From a virus, in the IMG/VR virus record IMGVR_UViG_3300043015_002491, positions 32,001 to 96,000 of that record: a DNA stretch of 64,000 bases. One strand, 5' to 3'. The position numbers were made by a program, and so were the translations under genes. A model generated the notes under the pieces. That model was not told where the DNA came from. It saw only the letters and a program-made list of their open reading frames with translations, and ran no database searches. This document shows, piece after piece, positions 4,274 through 28,361 of the stretch; within the stretch, counting starts at the first letter, position 1; every line of letters begins with the position of its first letter.

Positions 4274-4752
4274 TACTCACCTTTTAATATTTGTTTAAAC
4301 TTTCTAAGTTGTTCTTTTATTACGTTTTTAGCTTTAAAACTAGGACCCTTTTTGTTTATCGGTACTTTCACAGTTTTGGGTGACTTATCACCACCATTAA
4401 CATTAATAGTATATTTTCTATTATCCTTAAAGGTAATTTCGTTAAATTCTTTATCCAACTGATTTATTTCCATCTTAAGCTTAGGACCATCAGCTGAGAT
4501 AATTCTATGTATTTGAACATCCCCTAGATATTCACCTTGTATAATATGATTTAACTCGGCTTCTTTTCTTTTTTGTTTACCCGCAGAAACCCAGTCATTT
4601 CTAATACCAATAACCTCACAATCACCACCTACAGTAGCACTCATAAGGTCATCATTGTACTGTCCACCAGACTTTCCACATTCACATTTTCTCCATTTGG
4701 TGTGAATTAGTCTAACTACGTCATCACAATTTTTACAGATAATTAACTTCAT
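4273..4752 (-). CDS. Hypothetical Zn-binding protein (likely start MKLIICKNC)
   Basis: CxxC and CxCG motifs; ATATTTAT motif at 4758-4765 upstream of ATG at 4752. Confidence 0.65.
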   Translation of the reverse strand: MKLIICKNCDDVVRLIHTKWRKCECGKSGGQYNDDLMSATVGGDCEVIGIRNDWVSAGKQKRKEAELNHIIQGEYLGDVQIHRIISADGPKLKMEINQLDKEFNEITFKDNRKYTINVNGGDKSPKTVKVPINKKGPSFKAKNVIKEQLRKFKQILKGE

Positions 4753-4789
4753 ATTATATAAATATATTGAAACACGCAAAAAGATGAAG

Positions 4790-4879
4790 CGGAAGACAAG
4801 GGAATTGAACCCTCGGACCGCTCAAGGCGGCCAACGCATTAGCAGTGCGCCCCGACTAACCAACATTCGGCTATCTTCC
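4790..4879 (-). tRNA. tRNA-Ser(GCT)
   Basis: GGAAGAT/GTCTTCC acceptor, GCGCA-CTGCTAA-TGCGT anticodon arm, long variable arm, G73; no encoded CCA. Confidence 0.92.
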
Positions 4880-4884
4880 AAGTA

Positions 4885-4951
4885 CAGGATGGTTTTTTTA
4901 CGTAATCAAATTAGAAGTTTGGTCGTTAAAAATATTTGCTGAACCCATCCT
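4885..4951 (-). ncRNA. Small RNA family member A (closing stem plus CAGCAA), with CT-TCT-AA anticodon-like loop
   Basis: AGGATGG...CCATCCT closing stem; motif shared with four other loci. Confidence 0.6.
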
Positions 4952-4955
4952 TTAG

Positions 4956-5028
4956 TACCCCTACAGGGATTCGAACCCCGATTCTCGGCTTAGAAGGCCG
5001 ATGTCCTATCCAATTGAACGATAGAGGC
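4956..5028 (-). tRNA. tRNA-Arg(TCT)
   Basis: TCGGC-CTTCTAA-GCCGA arm, GGTTCGAATCC T-arm. Confidence 0.93.
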
Positions 5029-5133
5029 ATTTTGGTGAGAGGCTTTGGGTTAGATAAACCTCAATATTACATGAGAGACCCCCTAGAATGCATCACCATT
5101 GTGTGAGAACGTCTAAACGTTCCCGACTTTTAG

Positions 5134-5208
5134 TACACCTAGAAAGAATCGAACTTTCAATCTCTCAGTTCGTAGCCGAGTGCTTTAAATCCGTTAAGCT
5201 ATAGGTGT
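5134..5208 (-). tRNA. tRNA-Arg(ACG)
   Basis: ACACCTA/TAGGTGT acceptor, CTCGG-CTACGAA-CTGAG arm. Confidence 0.92.
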
Positions 5209-5216
5209 ATATTAAG

Positions 5217-5286
5217 TACCGACTGTGAGGTTCGAACTCACTTAACCGTCCATATGAAGGACTGTTCTTTTCCACTAAGTGTCGGC
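5217..5286 (-). tRNA. Atypical tRNA-Met-like (CAT) with weak D-arm
   Basis: GCCGAC/GTCGGT acceptor, GTCC-TTCATAT-GGAC arm, GTGAG-TTCGAAC-CTCAC T-arm. Confidence 0.7.
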
Positions 5287-5317
5287 ATGTCGCTACTATT
5301 CGACCTATCAATATTTG

Positions 5318-5389
5318 CTCCTTGGGGGAATTTCGAAATCCCGACCTATCGCTTAACAGGCGATTGCTCTACCTCTGAGCTACCAAGGA
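5318..5389 (-). tRNA. tRNA-Asn(GTT)
   Basis: TCCTTGG/CCAAGGA acceptor, ATCGC-CTGTTAA-GCGAT arm; non-canonical T-arm GGGATTTCGAAATTCCC. Confidence 0.9.
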
Positions 5390-5446
5390 ATAATTGTTTA
5401 TAGTTGGCCAAAACTAGTAAATAAATTAACTTTTGGCTGATTATAG

Positions 5447-5519
5447 TGGGCCCACTGAGACTCGAACTCAGAACAACTGATTATGAGTCAGCCGTTTTAA
5501 CCACTTAAACTACAGGCCC
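5447..5519 (-). tRNA. tRNA-Ile2(CAT, lysidine type), Met not excluded
   Basis: GGGCCTG/TGGGCCC acceptor typical of Ile2, GCTGA-CTCATAA-TCAGT arm. Confidence 0.85.
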
Positions 5520-5523
5520 TTTG

Positions 5524-5613
5524 TACTGGTGGTGAGATTCGAACTCACGTTTGGTAACAACCTCAAGAACCGCTACGTTTCTCCAAGATATAAGCTTGGG
5601 ACGCTACACCAGC
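5524..5613 (-). tRNA. D-armless tRNA-like gene with TAT (Ile) anticodon and long extra arm
   Basis: GCTGGTG/CACCAGT acceptor, CCAAG-CTTATAT-CTTGG arm, canonical T-arm, no D stem. Confidence 0.6.
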
Positions 5614-5692
5614 ATTTGTAGAGTAGGTGGGGTATTCTCCCACAATAAAGGGTCATAGTCCAGCGGTTTGTAGTTTGAACCTACTATTCTAG

Positions 5693-5778
5693 TTGGTAGG
5701 GTGGGACTCGAACCCACATTGTGCTTTCGCACCCAGTGTATCAGACTGGTCCCTGTAAACCAATTCGGGTACCTACCA
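5693..5778 (-). tRNA. tRNA with GAT (Ile) anticodon in a long-variable-arm body
   Basis: TGGTAGG/CCTACCA acceptor, CCAGT-CTGATAC-ACTGG arm, GTGC-GAAA-GCAC variable arm. Confidence 0.85.
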
Positions 5779-5785
5779 ATATTAA

Positions 5786-5875
5786 TGGCGGAGAGAGTGG
5801 GACTCGAACCCACACACCTCTAGGGCCTACGGTTTTCAAGACCGTTGCAGTTAGACCTACTCTGCTTACCTCTCC
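5786..5875 (-). tRNA. tRNA-Ser(TGA)
   Basis: GGAGAGG acceptor, ACGGT-CTTGAAA-ACCGT arm, variable arm, GCCA end. Confidence 0.93.
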
Positions 5876-5883
5876 GAATAAAG

Positions 5884-5970
5884 TACCCCATTGTAGGATT
5901 CGAACCTACGGTCCCCTAAAGGGACACCCGTTACACACGGGTCGCATTAAGCCACTCTGCCAAATGGGTC
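5884..5970 (-). tRNA. Atypical tRNA with TGT (Thr) anticodon, class II body
   Basis: ACCCG-TGTGTAA-CGGGT arm (G at 33), GTCCC-TTTAG-GGGAC variable arm, canonical T-arm. Confidence 0.7.
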
Positions 5971-5976
5971 ACTTTG

Positions 5977-6049
5977 CACTGCGTTAGAGAATCGAACTCT
6001 ATCCATCCGAGGTTTTGGAGACCTGGCGCATACCATTATGCTACGCAGT
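5977..6049 (-). tRNA. tRNA-Trp(CCA)
   Basis: ACTGCGT/ACGCAGT acceptor, AGGT-CTCCAAA-ACCT arm. Confidence 0.87.
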
Positions 6050-6127
6050 ATGTGTTTCAATACGTCAAAGAACATATCGGTTTAAAAGCCGATATTATCA
6101 ATTATCTGTTATTAATCAGATAACCTT

Positions 6128-6203
6128 TGGGGTGCACGAGGAATTTCGAAATCCCGACCTTCCGAATCACAGTCGGATGCTCTGCCTCTGAGCTACGTAC
6201 ACC
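6128..6203 (-). tRNA. tRNA-His(GTG)
   Basis: G-1:C73, TCCGA-CTGTGAT-TCGGA arm, encoded CCA; T-arm GGGATTTCGAAATTCCT. Confidence 0.92.
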
Positions 6204-6207
6204 ATAT

Positions 6208-6375
6208 TTAAAGAACTACGAAGAATACAACCTTTCCCCTTTCTTTTTTTATTTTTATTTCACCATTATAGCCTCCGTCTTCAGCTTTCTTTTTATACTT
6301 GTCGTAGATGGTATCAAAGTCTTTCTTAACTTCTTTTTCTTTTTCTACCCCAAGTTTTCTAACTCTCTCTTCCAT
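6208..6375 (-). CDS. 55-aa basic hypothetical protein, first gene of the tRNA operon
   Basis: Manual translation MEERVRKLGVEKEKEVKKDFDTIYDKYKKKAEDGGYNGEIKIKKERGKVVFFVVL. Confidence 0.6.
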   Translation of the reverse strand: MEERVRKLGVEKEKEVKKDFDTIYDKYKKKAEDGGYNGEIKIKKERGKVVFFVVL

Positions 6376-6388
6376 AATAATCGGACAT

Positions 6389-6421
6389 AAAAAAAGCCCG
6401 ACCAGTTTCCGAGTCGAGCTT
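6389..6421 (-). terminator. Attenuator terminator upstream of tRNA array
   Basis: AGCTCGACTCG-GAAA-CTGGTCGGGCT followed by T tract; G-U pairs fit a minus-strand RNA. Confidence 0.85.
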
Positions 6422-6455
6422 TATATTATTTTAGTTTTTTTATTTACATCACAAC

Positions 6456-6539
6456 TTAAATAATGGACATACTCGACTCATTTAGAGAATTACGTCTCCA
6501 ATTACTAATCGAATTTCTATGTATGTTCATTGTTCTCAT
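6456..6539 (-). CDS. Leader peptide MRTMNIHRNSISNWRRNSLNESSMSII (attenuator)
   Basis: 27-codon ORF between promoter and terminator; contains antiterminator GAGTCGAGT (6471-6479). Confidence 0.75.
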   Translation of the reverse strand: MRTMNIHRNSISNWRRNSLNESSMSII

Positions 6540-6574
6540 TGTTATAAAATTTTCTTTGTTTTTAAATATATATG

Positions 6575-6606
6575 CAAATATATGATAAAAGTTTCAATTT
6601 GGCAAG
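6575..6606 (-). promoter_or_regulatory. Bacteroidota-type housekeeping promoter for leader and tRNA operon
   Basis: TTG-N20-TATATTTG matches -33/-7 TAnnTTTG consensus. Confidence 0.75.
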
Positions 6607-6632
6607 TATTTTTATAAAAAAATTTTAAAAAA

Positions 6633-7223
6633 TTATTTTAAACTATAAAATCTTGTTGGAACTTCTTCCTTTGAAAGTTTGAAACTTAAGTTTTTACATA
6701 ACTTTTCAAAAGTTTCAGCAACTTCTTTACCTTGTTGTGACATTAGTGGATTATGATTAGTTTTAAATGACTTTGAGTACGTATATTTTATAGCATCTCC
6801 TTCATCAACACCATCAAAGATACAGGTTGTATCGTTATATTGAAACATGATTTGTCCAGATTCATATAATTCACTTGATGAATTAACTTTAGGGTCCCAA
6901 TATTTACCTCGACCTTGTGTTGAAGGTGTATCTTTGTCTACGAATCTAACTATAACATCTGAAAAAGCTGGCTTCACTTCAAATTCAACATTTCCTAATG
7001 CTTGGTCTCTGTATTTTTTAAACTTATTTACAAAATTACTTATTTGTGGGTTTCTTAACAATTCTTCATATTGCCTTTTCCAATGTTTGAATCTATTTTC
7101 ATCTATGTTGTTCACAGTTACTTCATCATATGACTCATTTATTAATCCCTTTGAAGCAAGGTATCTTTGTTCGGCTAACATGTTAGCCTTTTGTATGTTT
7201 AATTTCTTATCAAATTTTCTCAT
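6633..7223 (-). CDS. Hypothetical protein, shared MRKFDKK...AEQRYL N-terminus
   Basis: N-terminal ~25 aa shared with the two upstream ORFs. Confidence 0.75.
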   Translation of the reverse strand: MRKFDKKLNIQKANMLAEQRYLASKGLINESYDEVTVNNIDENRFKHWKRQYEELLRNPQISNFVNKFKKYRDQALGNVEFEVKPAFSDVIVRFVDKDTPSTQGRGKYWDPKVNSSSELYESGQIMFQYNDTTCIFDGVDEGDAIKYTYSKSFKTNHNPLMSQQGKEVAETFEKLCKNLSFKLSKEEVPTRFYSLK

Positions 7224-7237
7224 AATAAATCTTTATT

Positions 7238-7669
7238 TTACAAATCTTCTCTAGAAATTATTTTATATTCATCTGGGTTTTGACCAATGTCAGATAAGAA
7301 TTGCACCATAGCTTCCTTATCATTGGAGTATATACCTTTACCAGCTTTAATCATTGGGTCGTCTGATGCACCATAACCAACTGGGTATGGTGTGGTTAGA
7401 TTTACGTGTTTGAAAATATCACCACTCTTAAATAGGTTATATAATATAACCATATTGTCATTTGCTACACCAAAGTCTCTTGAAGAACTAACGTATTTGG
7501 ATATTTCTCGAATTAAATCATAAAAATTGTTTATATCTTTTAAATCATATTTAGCGTCACTCATTTCATTAATAACTTCTTCATTTTTTGATTCCTTACT
7601 TTCAAGGTATCTTTGTTCAGCTAACAAATTAGCTTTTTGGATATTATATTTCTTATCAAATTTTCTCAT
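7238..7669 (-). CDS. Hypothetical protein, shared MRKFDKK...AEQRYL N-terminus
   Basis: Same N-terminal module; ATATTTAT motif at 7685-7692. Confidence 0.75.
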   Translation of the reverse strand: MRKFDKKYNIQKANLLAEQRYLESKESKNEEVINEMSDAKYDLKDINNFYDLIREISKYVSSSRDFGVANDNMVILYNLFKSGDIFKHVNLTTPYPVGYGASDDPMIKAGKGIYSNDKEAMVQFLSDIGQNPDEYKIISREDL

Positions 7670-7810: not shown

Positions 7811-8674
7811 TTATCCTATATATATTTTATTACCGACTGTATATAGACTTCCAAATGTTTCACCATCAACATCTACAAATGTCTCTCCTTCTGATTTATA
7901 ATCATCAACACCTGGTCCATCTTTTACTTCTTTAACATAAAGAGTCCCACCTAAATTAACTGCAAAGAATCTACTCATATAATTTTTATCTGGTCCCATT
8001 GGTACTGGTGTTATCGGTGCTTTATATACAACACCTTCTTCATATTTAGGTATTTCCTCACCAATTTCAATTGCTTCACCTTCTAGTTGTTGGAACACGT
8101 CTTTTGTACGCATTCTCCAGTAAGGTGCAACCTTTGGGTTGTAGATTATTTCAGATTCTGGTGAACCTGGACTCTTAGAAGCTGTAGAAACCCTAACATC
8201 AGAACATTTAACTTTAGCTATAACATCCTTATTAGCGCCCTTATAAATCTCATAACCAGTTTTAACTCTATTTGTTAATAAACAATTAGTCATCTCAATA
8301 TCGAAAGACCATGGGTGGAAATTATTTCTTACACCTCCCTTTTCTACTTTATCAACTAAGTCACTTGGGTTGAAGTCTAATTTATCATCACCTAATAAAC
8401 CTGTTTTACCATTAGGTTCAACCTTCCATGTCATGAAAATACCTTTTCCAGTAATTGGGTCTCCAGTTTTAGCTAAGTTAAATCTAACCATGAATTGATT
8501 AGCTTTTGTAGTTGGGATATTTGGTACTCTGTCGTCTGTCGTTGGTTGTTCTACCTCTGGTTTTGACACCATACCTATTTCCTCTTCCTTTATTAAACCC
8601 TTTGAAGCAAGGTATCTTTGTTCGGCTAACATGTTAGCTTTTTGTATATTTAATTTCTTATCAAATCTTCTCAT
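7811..8674 (-). CDS. Hypothetical protein, shared N-terminus (likely start MRRFDKK at 8674)
   Basis: Same N-terminal module; ATATTTAT motif at 8691-8698. Confidence 0.75.
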   Translation of the reverse strand: MRRFDKKLNIQKANMLAEQRYLASKGLIKEEEIGMVSKPEVEQPTTDDRVPNIPTTKANQFMVRFNLAKTGDPITGKGIFMTWKVEPNGKTGLLGDDKLDFNPSDLVDKVEKGGVRNNFHPWSFDIEMTNCLLTNRVKTGYEIYKGANKDVIAKVKCSDVRVSTASKSPGSPESEIIYNPKVAPYWRMRTKDVFQQLEGEAIEIGEEIPKYEEGVVYKAPITPVPMGPDKNYMSRFFAVNLGGTLYVKEVKDGPGVDDYKSEGETFVDVDGETFGSLYTVGNKIYIG

Positions 8675-8749
8675 TGGGTTTCTTTTAATTATAAATATCA
8701 CTAATAAAGAAAAAAAACTGTTCCTAAAACTCCCATAACTTCTTAATTA

Positions 8750-9910
8750 TTATAATAAATTTTTAAAATTTTCAATTTCCATTTTCTCAATAGCCTTACC
8801 CATTTCTGGTCCAGGCTTAACTCCTAACTCTCGTTGTACTTGGTCACCAGTTACACTCAATTCAAATTTAACAAAACTAGTGATTAACTCACCATTTAAC
8901 CTTGCAAGCATACCAAACTTAAGTATTTGAGTATCTTCAATACCAGACTTACTTTGTAACTTCTTAAACTTGTAAACTTGTTCTGGGTTTACGAATTGTT
9001 GTAAAGCAATTAGAAATGTAATAACCTTAACTTCTGATGAAGAATAAGTAAGCTTATTTAACTCCTTTGCAATAACATTAGGGTCATTATCCTTAAGTGT
9101 ATTAGCAATCACAATGATTGGGTCCTTATCGTTAACCCTATCTGTTTTACTAATCTTAAGACCTGGGAAAATTGATTCCCATAATTTGTAGTCATCAATA
9201 AGACTTAAGAAATGTTTAACATTCTTAGCCGTTTTAATCCCCTTTAATAACTCATCTCTGATTCTTTCTGGCGAAACACCTTCAAGACTGTTATCCTTCT
9301 TTAAAGCAGCATCTACAGCTGGGTCAAGCCCACTTCCGAATCTACCAGCGAATCTAATAGCTCTAAGTATTCTAAGTCTATCTTCACCGAATCTATCTTC
9401 AGCAGCACCAACAGTTCTAACAACACCATTCTTCAAGTCATCAATACCACCAACAAGGTCAACAACCTCACCAGTATCTATATCGTAAAATAATGCGTTA
9501 ATAGTTAAATCTCTTCTCTTAACATCGGTTTCAATATCTGTAAATCTAACAGCATCTGGTCTCCTACCACCAGATAGGTCTTCTCTAAATGTAGCAATTT
9601 CGTATTCATCTGAATCTGTGAATACATTGATTACACCAAAAGCTTTACCAGTTGGTAGTGTTTTAAACCCAGCATCAGCCATCATATCTTCAACCTTGTC
9701 TGGTACAGCATCAGTTGCGAGGTCATAATCTTTTGGTGTCTTTCCTAGTAATGCATCTCTAACAGCACCACCAACAACAAATAACTTATGTCCGTTTTTA
9801 ACGAAAACATCTTTAATTTGTCTAATATCATCTGGGATAGGCATGTTCATTTGCACCCTTTCTTCTCTTATGATATCTTCTCTAAGTATTTGTTTGATTT
9901 TATCTTTCAT
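8750..9910 (-). CDS. cca: CCA-adding tRNA nucleotidyltransferase (class II)
   Basis: VGGAVRD, DYD, RRDLTINAL, EDRLRILRAIRF, ERIRDEL motifs. Confidence 0.88.
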   Translation of the reverse strand: MKDKIKQILREDIIREERVQMNMPIPDDIRQIKDVFVKNGHKLFVVGGAVRDALLGKTPKDYDLATDAVPDKVEDMMADAGFKTLPTGKAFGVINVFTDSDEYEIATFREDLSGGRRPDAVRFTDIETDVKRRDLTINALFYDIDTGEVVDLVGGIDDLKNGVVRTVGAAEDRFGEDRLRILRAIRFAGRFGSGLDPAVDAALKKDNSLEGVSPERIRDELLKGIKTAKNVKHFLSLIDDYKLWESIFPGLKISKTDRVNDKDPIIVIANTLKDNDPNVIAKELNKLTYSSSEVKVITFLIALQQFVNPEQVYKFKKLQSKSGIEDTQILKFGMLARLNGELITSFVKFELSVTGDQVQRELGVKPGPEMGKAIEKMEIENFKNLL

Positions 9911-18727: not shown

Positions 18728-18783
18728 TCACCAAAAATGGTGTGCAACAGTCACTACGTGCAAGTGAGTTGATTTCGACTGTC

Positions 18784-18855
18784 TAGCGGGGGAGGGAATC
18801 GAACCCCCGACCTCAAGGTTATGAGCCTTGCGAGCTACCTCTGCTCTACCCCGCA
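18784..18855 (-). tRNA. tRNA-Met(CAT), initiator-like
   Basis: TGCGGGGTAGAGCAG start with unpaired 1:72, CAAGG-CTCATAA-CCTTG arm. Confidence 0.9.
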
Positions 18856-18862
18856 ATATTAG

Positions 18863-20561: not shown

Positions 20562-20701
20562 AATAACTTTTTTTTTTTATTTTTAATTATGGTACAAATA
20601 TACCACCTTTATTTTAAATTGTCAAGTAAAAACGAAAAAACCCTCACTAGGAGGGTTTCTTAATTTCCATCTGGCGAAATCAGAATGGAATGCTTGAGCA
20701 G

Positions 20702-21070
20702 TGGAGTTGCTCGGATTCGAACCGAGGTCTTACTTACTCATAAAGAGCTTTCTACATGCTTATCTGGTTTCTAATTCCAGCAAAGTTTAACAGTTCCCTT
20801 ATTTTAGTAGTTCGTTTTACTGATAACTAATCTTCTACCCTTATTTTAACACCTTTGGTTGGTCGTTCCTGTGGGTTTCCCCAGTGCATTACTCTGTTAG
20901 GCGAATGCTACCTCTCCTACACCTACTTCTACAGAAGCAGTGTCAAGGAAGTTTTCAGCGATGTCAAATTCGTTTCCATCTAAAAATTTGATAGGTAATT
21001 AAAGTGTTTCCAATCTAACACTGCATGCTTACTAATCACGACTATAAGCAATCAATAGCCAGTCAACCCC
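20702..21070 (-). ncRNA. ssrA: tmRNA
   Basis: GGGGTTG/CAACTCC-A acceptor with G3-U70, GCATG boxes, T-arm GGTTCGAATCC; tag frame 20977-20897 GNEFDIAENFLDTASVEVGVEEVAFA. Confidence 0.9.
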
Positions 21071-26909: not shown

Positions 26910-28361
26910 TTAAACACGAATTGCTTCGTATCTTTCTGAACTAATAATATTCATCATCATTCCGTAAGGAGTGATATCATTACCAGCTAATAAGCTTGTT
27001 AATAACGCTGGGCTGAAACCAGACACCAACGCAGTACCTTGCTTATCGAATTGTACTGGGTTATTGTCATTTCTTGATTGAATGTTCCAGTATACAACCT
27101 TTGGCATTGTGTACCCAGCATCTGCATACATGTTTTCAATCATTCTTTGAGCAGTTGGATTCCAATCAGAATCACCTCTCCAACCATCGCCAGTAGCTTG
27201 GTTGAATTCCATATCCGAAAGGATAAGAATCATAGTTGGCATTTCTGACTCAGCAACATTACTAGCTTTTGCTTTTTGAAGCAATACCTTGAATGTCTTT
27301 TCTAAGTCTGTACTACCACCCCATTCTGCTCTAGATAGTTGGTTGAATCTGTCTCTTAAATCACCCTTTAAGTATTGTAACTTTGGGTTAGAGTGGAAAG
27401 TGAAGAATGCATCCTTGAATGGTCCTTCATTTCTCTCAGAGATATATAAACCTAATGAGATAGCTACATCCATACAGCTGATATTTGCGTTACCGCCAGC
27501 TGACACACCCATTGAGCCAGAAACGTCTACCACTGGTAAAACTCTTTCTTTATTACCTTCCATGTAGTTAGGTAAAGCTTTCCATTGTTCAACAGCACCA
27601 TCAGCTGAACCATATTTCAAGTTCTTAGTAATGTCGTATGGATATACAGCACCAGCATTAATCTTAGTTTCACCCTTTGAAAGTGAATCCAAATATGCTT
27701 GGAATCTGCTACCATCATTCTTAGAGAATGCCTTCATGTAATCAGACATTGCCTTAGATGGTACGTGTTCGTATGTAATCGCACCGAATTCTCTAGCACA
27801 CATTAATTGCTCAACAGTGTTAGATAACTCAGAAAGCATCTTTCTATACGCCTTTGGTGTTAACCCTAAGTGTTTTCTTAAGGTACTAGCCCATCTCTTC
27901 TTTTCCCTATTCTTAGTGTTACCTCTTGGCATCCACTTAGCCGCAAGTCCATTACCATCTTTTAACGCTTTTTCAATTTCGTTAAGAGCTTCTTTCTCTA
28001 ATTTAGTACCAACTAATATTAAATAGTCATCATACCTACCGTACTCAGCAATAAGTCCTATGTTCTTCTTAAGTGCTGAAGTTTTAGTATTAGCAAGATA
28101 AGTTAAAATATCTCTGAAAGTACCTCTTTCACCAGCTCCACCTCTAACGTCTCTAGCCCAGAATAAAATCTTCATAGCTGTTAACGAATCTTCAGCGAAA
28201 GCTTTAGAAAATGCATTAATCTTTCTTTGTTTATCTTGCCCTCTTAAAGCACCAATTTGGAAAAATAGGTCTACACAAGAATTAAGTGTAGTTGAATTTG
28301 TTGTCATACCATTTTCAGTAACAGTATCTTCAGTTCTTAAAGCGTCAATTAAATTTGCCAT
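26910..28361 (-). CDS. DUF2828-like TROVE/Ro60-related protein with C-terminal vWA domain
   Basis: TENG, RDVRGGAGER, AKWMPR, DVSGSM MIDAS, STDL, LSDMEF, WN, SGFSP. Confidence 0.82.
   Translation of the reverse strand: MANLIDALRTEDTVTENGMTTNSTTLNSCVDLFFQIGALRGQDKQRKINAFSKAFAEDSLTAMKILFWARDVRGGAGERGTFRDILTYLANTKTSALKKNIGLIAEYGRYDDYLILVGTKLEKEALNEIEKALKDGNGLAAKWMPRGNTKNREKKRWASTLRKHLGLTPKAYRKMLSELSNTVEQLMCAREFGAITYEHVPSKAMSDYMKAFSKNDGSRFQAYLDSLSKGETKINAGAVYPYDITKNLKYGSADGAVEQWKALPNYMEGNKERVLPVVDVSGSMGVSAGGNANISCMDVAISLGLYISERNEGPFKDAFFTFHSNPKLQYLKGDLRDRFNQLSRAEWGGSTDLEKTFKVLLQKAKASNVAESEMPTMILILSDMEFNQATGDGWRGDSDWNPTAQRMIENMYADAGYTMPKVVYWNIQSRNDNNPVQFDKQGTALVSGFSPALLTSLLAGNDITPYGMMMNIISSERYEAIRV

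What the first reader, a model, noticed from the sequence alone, without database searches (positions are those of the whole stretch)
4790..6606. Leader-peptide attenuator whose codons mirror the downstream tRNA array: a tRNA-depletion sensor
Seen (minus strand): promoter (6575-6606), 27-codon ORF (6539-6456), intrinsic terminator (6421-6389), a 55-aa ORF, then 12 tRNA genes. Leader codons: ATG AGA ACA ATG AAC ATA CAT AGA AAT TCG ATT AGT AAT TGG AGA CGT AAT TCT CTA AAT GAG TCG AGT ATG TCC ATT ATT. Array anticodons: His GTG, Trp CCA, Thr-like TGT, Ser TGA, Ile GAT, Ile-like TAT, Ile2 CAT, Asn GTT, Met-like CAT, Arg ACG, Arg TCT, Ser GCT. The first 18 codons use only M,R,T,N,I,H,S,W, every array anticodon has a matching codon among them (Ser TGA, Ile GAT, Ser GCT and His by wobble), and 25 of 27 codons fall in this set. 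Lys, Phe, Asp, Val, Gly and Tyr, abundant in this genome, are absent. Codons 21-23 (GAGTCGAGT, 6471-6479) form 9 bp with the terminator 5' arm (GCTCGACTC, 6411-6419), and AATGAACATAC/GTATGTCCATT gives an alternative hairpin overlapping that segment. Established: this is the logic of trp/his-type attenuation, and hosts cleave tRNAs as anti-phage defence (e.g. PrrC). Inference: a ribosome stalling at any of these codons frees the antiterminator, so replacement tRNAs are made only when host tRNAs are cleaved or depleted. I know of no described multi-codon attenuator controlling a phage tRNA array.
Basis: partly seen in the sequence, partly recalled or inferred. Interest (0 to 1): 0.96.

Follow-up and report, generated by a model that had tools for sequence, protein, structure and literature searches.

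The report
Codon-matched attenuators gating phage tRNA arrays
A large phage puts each block of its tRNA genes behind a tiny test gene written in the codons those tRNAs read and followed by a switchable transcription stop, so it probably makes each tRNA set only when ribosomes read those codons slowly.

Summary
Confirmed and extended. At 6389-6611 (minus strand) a Bacteroidota-type promoter, a 27-codon ORF and a hairpin+T7 terminator precede 10 tRNA genes. The array reads 16 of the 17 leader codons 2-18 (genome share 0.30; P about 6e-8).

The same genome holds three paralogous units outside the window. Each leader is rich in the amino acids of its own array, and the four arrays cover all 20. 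Relatives in IMG/VR and metagenomes keep the design (36 and 30 non-redundant units).
- Substitutions stay within the array's amino-acid set.
- The signal is frame-specific (0.94 against 0.23 and 0.26).
- A leader segment at codons ~20-25 co-varies with the terminator's 5' arm (0 of 20,000 shuffles).

Divergent units show covariation most clearly. An Arg/Leu/Gln leader with nine codon types precedes nine matching anticodons, a Ser leader precedes Ser tRNAs, and a hybrid leader precedes a hybrid array. A bacterial contig has the same leader start before ilvE-ilvD-ilvB.

Best reading: ribosome-mediated attenuation giving feedback on tRNA supply. The defence trigger is untested and there are no usable expression data. 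Ten literature searches found no description. This scan has already reported the same design in other phage genomes.

The parts
6585..6611 (-). 27-nt promoter block shared by the tRNA-array units; includes the upstream TTG at 6605-6603
   Evidence: exact here, with 1 and 2 mismatches of 27 at genome 21693 and 15821; a fourth, more diverged copy near genome 18770. TTGCCA-17-TATATT at 6605-6577.
6575..6582 (-). TATATTTG box. It fits the Bacteroidota -7 consensus TAnnTTTG, which I recall and no call supplied.
   Evidence: sequence. The same box type occurs in the three paralogs, in relatives and before the tmRNA.
6456..6539 (-). Leader ORF, 27 codons plus TAA: MRTMNIHRNSISNWRRNSLNESSMSII
   Evidence: An intact ORF is kept in 12 of 12 non-redundant D-type units, and gaps within the ORF are in multiples of three.
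6486..6536 (-). Control codons 2-18, all for amino acids of the downstream array
   Evidence: run of 17. (16 of 17 read under strict wobble, P = 5.9e-8). (204 of 204 residues in set across 12 D-type units; 8 of 8 minority residues in set).
6521..6531 (-). Candidate segment 1 (AATGAACATAC), which can pair with GTATGTCCATT at the 3' edge of segment 2 as an anti-antiterminator
   Evidence: Paired in the full-length MFE. ACATACAT and TATG are invariant in 12 of 12 D-type sequences. No covariation is available.
6471..6479 (-). Segment 2, the antiterminator 5' strand GAGTCGAGT (codons 21-23)
   Evidence: -16.4 kcal/mol with its own terminator arm; own-versus-shuffled tests, 0 of 20,000 each.
6393..6422 (-). 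Intrinsic terminator hairpin. The 5' arm GCTCGACTC (6419-6411) is also segment 3.
   Evidence: 11 pairs, 5 G-C, loop 8. (terminator pair probability 0.81 in the full-length fold).
6389..6395 (-). Run of seven T after the hairpin
   Evidence: sequence.
6208..6375 (-). 55-aa ORF inside the attenuated operon, of unknown function
   Evidence: Homologs follow the D-type terminator in L002, L003, L004, L006 and L020. No Pfam match. A related strain's contig differs at 11 places, 6228-6271, mostly 3 nt apart.
6128..6202 (-). tRNA-His (GTG)
5976..6049 (-). tRNA-Trp (CCA)
5883..5970 (-). tRNA-Thr (TGT), 88 nt with a long variable arm
5786..5875 (-). tRNA-Ser (TGA)
5692..5778 (-). tRNA-Ile (GAT), 87 nt with a long variable arm
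5446..5519 (-). tRNA with anticodon CAT (Met or Ile2; not resolved)
5317..5389 (-). tRNA-Asn (GTT)
5133..5208 (-). tRNA-Arg (ACG)
4955..5028 (-). tRNA-Arg (TCT)
4789..4879 (-). tRNA-Ser (GCT)
   Evidence: One search finds it only as a tRNA-Sec-like hit, 40.2 bits against a threshold of 47.

Best explanation
This is one of four paralogous ribosome-mediated transcription attenuators in the phage genome. Each sits between a Bacteroidota-type promoter and one block of tRNA genes.

Proposed mechanism:
1. The promoter fires and a ribosome translates a 26-35-codon leader. Its codons 2-19 are drawn almost only from the codons that the tRNAs just downstream read.
2. If those aminoacyl-tRNAs are plentiful, the ribosome runs on over codons ~20-25. 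That stretch (segment 2) is complementary to the 5' arm of the terminator. With segment 2 covered, the terminator hairpin forms and transcription stops before the tRNAs.
3. If any of those tRNAs is scarce, the ribosome stalls upstream. Segment 2 pairs with the terminator's 5' arm, the terminator cannot form, and RNA polymerase reads into the array.

The products relieve the stall, so each unit is a negative-feedback loop on the supply of its own tRNA set.

What is shown here:
- the anatomy;
- the codon/anticodon matching and its covariation across relatives;
- covariation between segment 2 and the terminator arm;
- fold models with the expected polarity.

What is inferred: translation of the leader, coupling, termination and readthrough in vivo, and the physiological trigger.
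For: (1) Four units in one genome.
- MNLTVTTYQPKQYTQGGKPS.. precedes Pro, Pro, Gln, Tyr, Tyr, Thr, Gly, Lys.
- MRTFNNIFDFAFEAFAEADF.. precedes Phe, Glu, Glu, Asp, Ala.
- MITRNNILLVLNLCLLVV.. precedes Cys, Val, Leu, Met, Val, Leu, Leu.
- The window's leader precedes His ... Ser.
- In-set runs are 14, 13, 6 and 17, with bounds of 2e-6, 1e-7, 6e-4 and 2e-7. Three are the longest among 499 small ORFs.
- The diagonal dominates the 4x4 matrices of G000 and G003 and the 3x3 matrix of G002.

(2) Frame control: 0.94 in set in the ORF frame, against 0.23 and 0.26 in the other frames (36 units, 501 codons).

(3) Orthologs permute residues within the set. Minority residues in set: D 8 of 8, C 15 of 25, B 10 of 16, A 10 of 19.

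(4) Covariation with the array.
- L184 has leader codons CGG, CTA, CGC, CAG, AGA, CAA, AGG, CTG and CTC before Arg cct/tct/gcg/tcg, Leu gag/cag/tag and Gln ttg/ctg, so 9 of 9 anticodon species are matched.
- L213 has a Ser-codon leader before four Ser tRNAs.
- G001 has a hybrid leader before a Pro-Gln-His-Arg-Pro-Ser-Phe-Glu-Asp array. It has lost Tyr and Lys codons and gained Phe, Asp, His and Glu codons.
- Leu codon types track Leu isoacceptors in G000, G003 and L033.

(5) Antiterminator: own against shuffled duplex energy.
- 36 units: -12.84 against -9.21 kcal/mol, 0 of 20,000 shuffles.
- 19 units with distinct arms: -13.34 against -9.20.
- An independent metagenome set of 30 units: -11.99 against -8.30, 0 of 20,000.

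(6) Fold models of the transcript up to the terminator loop.
- A ribosome at codons 5-15 leaves the arm sequestered (0.68-0.83).
- A ribosome at codons 20-24 frees it (0.21-0.41).

(7) In units B and C of this genome the first tRNA starts about 15-20 nt after the T run, so it can only be made by readthrough.

(8) A bacterial contig (L164) has two Ile-rich leaders with the same start, each with a terminator, before ilvE-ilvD-ilvB.

(9) The tmRNA has the same promoter type but no leader.
Against: There is no experimental or usable expression evidence. The one RNA run gave two 151-nt contigs inside the array and nothing on the leader, and DNA can be present in such libraries.

Equilibrium folds with no ribosome favour the antiterminator in the truncated model (0.46-0.89).

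Many A- and D-type leaders have tails long enough that a ribosome at the stop codon no longer covers segment 2. The arm is then sequestered 0.63-0.65 on average, and 0.89 in this genome's A unit. Termination would therefore need a ribosome on codons ~18-27 at the right moment, or a 1:2 pairing for which I have conservation but no covariation.

Several B-type units have weak complementarity between segment 2 and the arm (-5.5 to -10 kcal/mol).

Some tRNAs that have joined an array are not mirrored in its leader:
- His in L044;
- Asn in L028;
- 'Gln' in the G003 B array;
- Arg-ACG in G001.

The unit finder required a terminator and a nearby tRNA, so those sets are selected. The pattern-anchored sets are not.
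Confidence: 0.78

Rival explanations
1. The same attenuators, but a dedicated counter-defence sensor. They would be silent in normal infection and fire when host anticodon nucleases or other tRNA-targeting defences cleave particular tRNAs.
For: Isoacceptor-level matching suits detection of the loss of single tRNA species (D 10 of 10, L184 9 of 9). The genome also carries a CCA-adding enzyme, a tmRNA and a Ro60-like protein. I recall that hosts cleave tRNAs as a defence and that phage tRNAs can replace them; no call supplied this.
Against: Nothing here ties the units to a defence. A stall responds equally to amino-acid starvation, host shut-off or codon-usage mismatch. No anticodon-loop features were examined.
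Confidence: 0.15
2. Translation of the leader controls the array, but not through the intrinsic terminator. The route could be ribosome-dependent RNA processing or stability, or Rho-type termination.
For: A motif GTTCWTTRA lies 14-25 nt upstream of several tRNA and tmRNA 5' ends and may be a processing signal. The tails of A- and D-type leaders fit the simple model poorly.
Against: A hairpin plus T run is present in every untruncated unit at the pattern-anchored places: 15 of 15 D matches, 11 of 11 B/C matches in IMG/VR, and 40 of 56 metagenome matches, the rest being cut or unrelated. Segment 2 co-varies with the terminator arm.
Confidence: 0.05
3. The small ORFs are independent micropeptide genes or are untranslated. 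The terminators merely end a short transcript, and the codon match is compositional or chance.
For: Leader C is hydrophobic, and its run of 6 is not unusual among small ORFs (13 of 499 reach it).
Against: The joint statistics of four units. Frame specificity. In-set permutation of residues rather than conservation of a peptide sequence. Leaders that track different arrays. No room for a promoter before the first tRNA of units B and C.
Confidence: 0.02

Closest known systems
Multivalent leader-peptide attenuators of amino-acid operons (trp, his, leu, pheA; thr and ilvGMEDA with several amino acids; pheST). Textbook knowledge, recalled. For PMC1183508 I saw only the search listing and the start of the abstract.
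   Same: A promoter-proximal short ORF rich in regulatory codons, an intrinsic terminator, and an antiterminator whose 3' strand is the terminator's 5' arm. Slow decoding gives readthrough.
   Different: The regulated genes are tRNAs, not biosynthetic enzymes or synthetases, so the product sensed is the product made. Control sets span 4-8 amino acids and resolve isoacceptors. Four units partition all 20 amino acids. The system is phage-borne.
ilv-operon leader on a bacterial metagenome contig (L164), found here
   Same: The same first seven codons (by design of the search pattern), Ile-rich control codons, a hairpin plus T run, and a segment complementary to the terminator arm right after the stop. 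ilvE, ilvD and ilvB-like genes lie downstream.
   Different: It controls enzymes. There are two tandem leader-terminator units, with segment 2 just after the stop codon. It is a single example found with a pattern taken from the phage leaders, so common descent is not shown. The GTDB scan gave 10 matches, none of them a leader.
Anabaena sp. PCC 7120 trn operon (a long tRNA array induced by translational stress). PMC8421152: passages read. PMC10272220: abstract read.
   Same: A supernumerary tRNA array, silent by default and induced when translation is impaired.
   Different: Control there is by the repressor TrcR, acting at direct repeats over the -10 box and the start site. In PMC8421152 'leader peptide', 'attenuat' and 'terminator' each occur 0 times in the main text.
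T-box riboswitches (recalled)
   Same: They sense tRNA status and switch a terminator/antiterminator.
   Different: T-boxes bind uncharged tRNA directly, with no leader ORF, and control synthetase or amino-acid genes. No T-box match was found in the window region or in L007.

Membership tests
Ribosome-mediated (leader-peptide) transcription attenuators | A short ORF with a start codon just downstream of a promoter and upstream of the regulated genes | tested here: met
   The ORF is kept in 36 of 36 and 30 of 30 non-redundant units, which were selected for a short ORF.
Ribosome-mediated (leader-peptide) transcription attenuators | Regulatory codons cognate to the product of the regulated genes, beyond chance | tested here: met
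Ribosome-mediated (leader-peptide) transcription attenuators | An intrinsic terminator between the leader and the regulated genes | tested here: met
   Pattern-anchored sets: 15 of 15 untruncated D matches, 11 of 11 B/C matches.
Ribosome-mediated (leader-peptide) transcription attenuators | A mutually exclusive antiterminator that uses the terminator's 5' arm, supported by covariation | tested here: met
   (0 of 20,000 shuffles in two independent sets). It is weak in several B-type units.
Ribosome-mediated (leader-peptide) transcription attenuators | An anti-antiterminator or pause hairpin (1:2) giving termination without stalling | tested here: inconclusive
   It is present in the full-length MFE and its bases are invariant in D-type units. 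There is no covariation, and the truncated models favour 2:3 without a ribosome.
Ribosome-mediated (leader-peptide) transcription attenuators | Readthrough rises when the cognate aminoacyl-tRNA is limiting | not testable with these tools
   No culture, Term-seq or Ribo-seq. The RNA contigs were uninformative.
Rfam leader families (Thr_leader RF00506, Trp_leader RF00513) | A score at or above the family's gathering threshold | tested here: not met
   22.8 bits against 55 and 20.4 against 41, with E 0.24 and 0.54. The hits rest on the terminator region.
T-box riboswitch | A match to the T-box covariance model | tested here: not met
   No T-box hit at E <= 1 in window 4500-6800, or at E <= 0.1 in L007.

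The most novel reading that the evidence does not exclude
A clade of large Bacteroidota phages runs its whole tRNA complement through a set of re-codable, isoacceptor-resolved 'decoding-capacity meters'. Each block of tRNAs is switched on by slow reading of exactly its own codons. The modules may derive from host amino-acid attenuators and are rewritten whenever tRNAs move between blocks. The phage could then match tRNA output to whatever host pool, shut-off state or tRNA-cleaving defence it meets. This would be a first case of direct product feedback on tRNA genes by attenuation.
Probability: 0.45. Interest if true: 0.95.

Novelty: new variant of a known kind. Interest (0 to 1): 0.9.

Why it matters
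How phages control the tRNAs they carry is largely unknown, and tRNA genes are generally treated as constitutively or growth-rate regulated. Here a classical mechanism is turned on the translation apparatus itself. The sensor reads the very codons whose decoders it controls, in up to ten isoacceptor channels per unit, and four units cover the whole code.

If it works as inferred, several things follow.
- It explains why phage tRNA arrays are sorted by isotype.
- It gives a directly testable model for when phage tRNAs are needed.
- It offers natural, compact, codon-specific biosensors of decoding capacity.
- It shows how a regulatory module is re-coded as its cargo changes.

Tried and rejected
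Searches that found nothing or too much:
- GenBank phages gave no match, by DNA to 6200-6640 or by tblastn of a 900-aa protein.
- The promoter 20-mer gave 0 stretches in IMG/VR.
- The pattern CAAGGNGGGANGCCNAG was too loose. It gave 119 or more stretches, mostly unrelated. Family units turned up only in L039, L044, L051, L067, L074, L092, L098, L119, L129, L146 and L153.
- The GTDB genome scan with the 21-nt leader pattern gave 10 matches. Nine are N-termini of proteins of 82 or more aa and one is a 24-aa ORF with no terminator seen (L217). None is a leader-terminator unit.
- Of 56 metagenome matches, 40 were short ORFs with a terminator. Three were cut by a contig end (L179, L180, L211). Thirteen were unrelated ORFs or had no terminator.
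- Among the 30 non-redundant metagenome units, L159 and L167 showed no tRNA within about 900 nt. L174 and L175 had under 125 nt of room. L164 is bacterial.

Folds and alignments:
- Full-length equilibrium folds hardly discriminated between stall positions, except in unit B. I replaced them with folds truncated before the 3' arm.
- The MAFFT alignment A1 did not align the terminators. I therefore did not use the count of structure pairs or fold_alignment, and used own-versus-shuffled duplex energies instead.

tRNA calls:
- Relaxed ARAGORN gave 90 calls, mostly noise. From it I keep only the second Asp-like element (genome 17953-18030), as unconfirmed.
- The odd tRNA-like elements at 5209-5316 and 5520-5691 aligned only weakly to relatives' CAT tRNAs.

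Expression:
- RNA run X20 held two exact 151-nt contigs (5083-5233 and 5267-5417) and chimeric pieces at 4965-5019. Nothing lay on the leader or terminator. This is no evidence either way.

Literature:
- Ten searches found no account of leader-peptide control of tRNA genes.
- The library lacks most subscription journals, and supplements were closed.

Not done: structure prediction, complex prediction, protein homology searches on the 55-aa ORF, and tRNA isotype modelling.


Full report
**What is in the window.**
- A promoter-like TTGCCA-17-TATATT lies at 6605-6577, with a TATATTTG box at 6582-6575.
- An ATG at 6539 opens 27 codons (MRTMNIHRNSISNWRRNSLNESSMSII) that end at a TAA at 6458-6456.
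- A hairpin at 6422-6393 has 11 pairs, 5 of them G-C, and is followed by seven T.
- A 55-aa ORF runs 6375-6208, and a tRNA array follows.

ARAGORN tRNAs between 6202 and 4789: His-GTG, Trp-CCA, Thr-TGT, Ser-TGA, Ile-GAT, CAT, Asn-GTT, Arg-ACG, Arg-TCT and Ser-GCT. Rfam agrees on the same ten places, nine as RF00005 and Ser-GCT only as a sub-threshold tRNA-Sec-like hit. The count is therefore 10, not 12. Weak Rfam hits to Thr_leader and Trp_leader lie far below threshold and rest on the terminator region.

**Is the codon match more than chance?**
The genome is one contig of 122,509 bp with 31% G+C, and the window is bases 32001-96000. I took proteome composition from 107 long ORFs.
- The set {H,W,T,S,I,M,N,R} makes up 0.356 of residues. 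The run of 17 in-set residues after the start has a bound of 2.4e-7, and it is the longest among 499 small ORFs of the genome.
- At codon level the ten tRNAs read 0.302 of genome codons under strict wobble, yet they read 16 of the 17 leader codons 2-18. Binomial P = 5.9e-8.
- Conversely, all 10 of 10 anticodon species have a cognate codon in leader codons 2-20.

**Three paralogs in the same genome.**
Whole-genome ARAGORN finds 31 tRNAs and a tmRNA, all on the minus strand. I found the paralogs before I looked at earlier notes of this scan.

The 27-nt promoter block of the window's unit recurs at genome 21693 (1 mismatch) and 15821 (2 mismatches). A more diverged copy lies near 18770. Each copy is followed by a short ORF, a hairpin plus T run, and a tRNA block.
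- Unit A: MNLTVTTYQPKQYTQGGKPSVAG... precedes Pro, Pro, Gln, Tyr, Tyr, Thr, Gly, Lys. The Gly-TCC tRNA at genome 14750-14819 comes from Rfam only, at 30.7 bits.
- Unit B: MRTFNNIFDFAFEAFAEADFSLG... precedes Phe, Glu, Glu, Asp, Ala.
- Unit C: MITRNNILLVLNLCLLVVNWSD... precedes Cys, two ORFs, then Val, Leu, Met, Val, Leu, Leu.
- Unit D is the window's unit.

In-set runs are 14, 13, 6 and 17, with bounds of 2e-6, 1e-7, 6e-4 and 2e-7. The run of 6 in unit C is not unusual on its own: 13 of 499 small ORFs reach it. In the leader-by-array matrix the diagonal is 0.56, 0.52, 0.52 and 0.92 by amino acid. It is 0.72, 0.58, 0.59 and 0.94 by strict codon reading. The four arrays together cover all 20 amino acids. 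In units B and C the first tRNA begins about 15-20 nt after the T run, which leaves no room for a promoter of its own. The tmRNA has the same type of promoter but no leader ORF.

**Relatives.**
The neighbouring CCA-adding enzyme gene led to six IMG/VR loci. Record G003 is 362,532 bp with direct terminal repeats and is rated 100% complete. It carries all four leader types, each before the matching array. G002 carries B, C and D.

Two patterns taken from the leaders gave further places.
- The 20-mer inside the D leader is identical in 16 places on 15 IMG/VR stretches. Fifteen have the complete leader and terminator, and one is cut by a contig end.
- A 21-nt pattern from the start of the B and C leaders hit 11 IMG/VR stretches, all with leader, hairpin plus T run and tRNA.
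- The same pattern hit 56 metagenome stretches. Forty have a short ORF plus terminator, 3 are cut, and 13 are unrelated.

After removing duplicates I had 36 units from IMG/VR plus this genome (D 12, B 9, A 8, C 7) and 30 from metagenomes. The first set was selected by a filter that required a terminator and a tRNA within 700 nt. The pattern-anchored counts above do not share that bias.

**Signatures of a codon sensor rather than a peptide or a plain RNA.**
- The signal is frame-specific: 0.94 of control-window residues are in set in the ORF frame, against 0.23 and 0.26 in the other two (36 units, 501 codons).
- Orthologs shuffle residues within the set instead of keeping a sequence. Examples are FDFAFEAFAEAD, FEFDFFAAEADF and FDFAFFAAEADK, and TYQPKQYTQ, TYQPKTKQQ and TYYQPKQTQ.
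- Minority residues in variable columns are in set for D 8 of 8, C 15 of 25 (set frequency 0.18), B 10 of 16 (0.24) and A 10 of 19 (0.32).
- Gaps within the D-type ORFs come in threes.

**Covariation with the array.**
- G001 has a fused array, Pro-Gln-His-Arg-Pro-Ser-Phe-Glu-Asp. Its A-type leader reads MNFIIDIHTFEQNSQGGTPSETG. It has lost the Tyr and Lys codons of its orthologs and gained Phe, Asp, His and Glu codons. Seven of its 8 anticodon species have a cognate codon. It still keeps Ile, Thr, Asn and Gly codons for which no tRNA was found in that array.
- G001's C-type leader precedes only two Leu tRNAs and has lost the control-region Cys.
- Leu codon types follow Leu isoacceptors. G000 uses TTA, CTT and CTA with TAA, AAG and TAG. 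G003 adds TTG and CTC together with CAA and GAG. L033 uses TTA, CTT, TTG and CTA with TAA, AAG, CAA and TAG. L011 is an exception: it has CTT and TTG codons but no AAG or CAA tRNA was detected.
- L184 is the clearest case. Its leader MKTINNIVRLRQRRQRLLQRNQ... uses CGG, CTA, CGC, CAG, AGA, CAA, AGG, CTG and CTC. It precedes Arg-cct, -tct, -gcg and -tcg, Leu-gag, -cag and -tag, and Gln-ttg and -ctg. That is nine codon types for nine anticodon species.
- L213 reads MKTINNISSSSSSRSIS and precedes Ser-tga, -gct, -tga and -gga. Its Ser codons TCT, TCG, TCA and AGT cover all three species.
- In a 7x7 codon matrix the diagonal is 0.58-0.92 and is the row maximum in 6 of 7 rows. The Ser leader scores 0.75 on the D array, which also holds Ser tRNAs.

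Some tRNAs in arrays are not mirrored in the leader: His in L044, Asn in L028, a 'Gln' in the G003 B array, and Arg-ACG in G001.

**The switch.**
In every unit a segment at about codons 20-25 is complementary to the 5' arm of that unit's own terminator, with different sequences in different units. Examples are GAGTCGAGT/GCTCGACTC here, GGGAGAGTC/GGCTCTCCC in B, GGTCGGACT/AGTCCGA in C, GGCGGGTTT/AAACCCGTC in A, and GGTCAAGGT/GCCTTGACC in L002.

Own-pair duplex energies beat shuffled pairings.
- 36 units: -12.84 against -9.21 kcal/mol (sd 0.39), 0 of 20,000 shuffles.
- 19 units with distinct arms: -13.34 against -9.20.
- 30 metagenome units: -11.99 against -8.30, 0 of 20,000.
- Related sequences inflate such tests, and several B-type units pair weakly (-5.5 to -10).

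I also folded the transcript up to the terminator loop with a 30-nt ribosome mask. For the window's unit:
- A-site at codons 2-17: the 5' arm is sequestered (0.78-0.82).
- A-site at codons 18-28: the arm is free (0.03-0.19).
- No ribosome: 0.46.

Over all 36 units the means are 0.68-0.83 at codons 5-15, 0.21-0.41 at codons 20-24, 0.37-0.65 at the stop, and 0.63-0.74 with no ribosome. The polarity is therefore as predicted, but two points stay open.
- The default state without translation is unclear.
- In A- and D-type leaders with long tails, a ribosome at the stop no longer covers segment 2.

A 1:2 pairing (ACATAC with GTATGT in D) appears in full-length folds, and its bases are invariant in 12 of 12 D units. 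It shows no covariation.

**Link to known attenuators.**
One metagenome hit (L164) is bacterial. Two tandem Ile-rich leaders (MKTVNNIIMINIIIRFNE and MKTNTIIIISIIIICPSG), each with a hairpin plus T run, precede genes with the following Pfam domains:
- Aminotran_4;
- ILVD_EDD;
- TPP-enzyme.

These correspond to ilvE-, ilvD- and ilvB-like genes, and a HmuY gene lies nearby. This is a classical ilv attenuator with the same first seven codons as the phage leaders. It was found with a pattern derived from those leaders, however. The GTDB scan found no further leaders. A host origin for the phage modules is therefore a lead, not a result.

**What it most likely does.**
The units are ribosome-mediated attenuators that give each tRNA block negative feedback on the decoding speed of its own codons. 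The signal is any shortage of those aminoacyl-tRNAs. Whether the natural cause is host shut-off, codon mismatch, starvation or defence nucleases cannot be told from sequence.

**Comparison with print.**
Ten full-text searches found nothing on leader-peptide control of tRNA genes. The nearest functional analogue is the Anabaena trn operon, a silent tRNA array induced by translational stress. It is controlled by a repressor at promoter repeats (TrcR). I read passages of PMC8421152, where 'leader peptide', 'attenuat' and 'terminator' each occur 0 times, and the abstract of PMC10272220. Supplements were closed and subscription journals are mostly missing from the library.

**Earlier notes of this scan.**
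First-stage notes on this genome list the same four units, and I tested their claims here. Follow-up reports on other phage genomes describe the same design. So the scan has found this before on other DNA, and I did not re-test those cases.

**Expression and habitat.**
DNA of this stretch is held in estuary, urban and freshwater metagenome runs. Eight runs hold at least half of the sampled words, and three of them are possible sources of the assembly. The single RNA run gave two 151-nt contigs inside the array and nothing on the leader. That is no evidence either way.

A related strain's contig spanning 6075-6631 differs at 11 places, all within 6228-6271 of the 55-aa ORF and mostly 3 nt apart. 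It shows no difference in the leader or the terminator.

**Verdict.**
The interpretation as a codon-matched attenuator is strongly supported by comparative evidence but is untested at the bench. It is a new use of a known mechanism, and I could not find it in print.

Noticed in passing
window 5692-5778 and 5883-5970; outside the window at genome 18232-18317, 20061-20144, 20150-20240 and 15323-15419: Several tRNAs of 84-97 nt have a long variable arm but carry Ile-GAT, Thr-TGT, Glu-TTC, Val-TAC, Met-CAT or Pro-TGG anticodons. From memory, long arms are normally confined to Leu, Ser and Tyr. Most sit beside a normal-length tRNA with the same anticodon. The Ile-GAT tRNA is the only one of its kind in the genome.
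   Followed up: partly
window 20701-21070: A phage-borne tmRNA (tag GNEFDIAENFLDTASVEVGVGEVAFA) has a TTGACA...TATATTTG promoter and no leader ORF. A relative (L004) also has a tmRNA.
   Followed up: partly
window 6216, 6073 and 21085; genome 20550, 18421, 15530, 17512, 51227 and 47337 (minus strand): A motif GTTCWTTRA lies 14-25 nt upstream of the 5' ends of tRNA-His, Trp, Leu, Glu and Pro and of the tmRNA. It also lies shortly after three other TAnnTTTG boxes. It may be a processing or leader signal for structured RNAs.
   Followed up: partly
window 26910-28361; genome 17382-17444 (outside the window): A Ro60-like protein (phrog_850 'RNA-binding protein'; Pfam DUF2828 and DUF7788) occurs together with a sub-threshold YrlA (Y RNA-like) hit of 42.3 bits against 69, in the tRNA region.
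   Followed up: no
window 4880-4954, 5029-5132, 5209-5316 and 5520-5691: The spacers between tRNAs hold structured, partly tRNA-like elements with acceptor-like and T-arm-like helices. One has a CTTATAT loop and one a TTCATAT loop. Neither ARAGORN nor Rfam calls them.
   Followed up: partly
window 6633-7223, 7238-7669 and 7811-8701: Three neighbouring genes just upstream of the unit share the N-terminus MRKFDKK(L/Y)NIQKAN(M/L)LAEQRYL. They have no Pfam family apart from a sub-threshold FlaG hit.
   Followed up: no
window 8750-9910: A tRNA nucleotidyltransferase (CCA-adding enzyme) gene lies close upstream of the array. It is conserved at 46-77% identity in six IMG/VR relatives.
   Followed up: partly
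L164:4100-4540 (bacterial metagenome contig): Two tandem Ile-rich leader-terminator units precede ilvE, ilvD and ilvB-like genes. This is a double attenuator in a probable Bacteroidota bacterium.
   Followed up: partly
window 18783-18856: A lone tRNA with a CAT anticodon lies outside the four arrays, with no leader ORF upstream. It may be the initiator, but this was not tested.
   Followed up: no
leaders of units B and C (genome 18667 and 21626) and most relatives: The first seven codons, M-(R/K)-T-x-N-N-I, are conserved at nucleotide level across leader types and use amino acids of the D set. This could reflect shared ancestry, a translation-start optimum, or cross-sensing of the D set.
   Followed up: no
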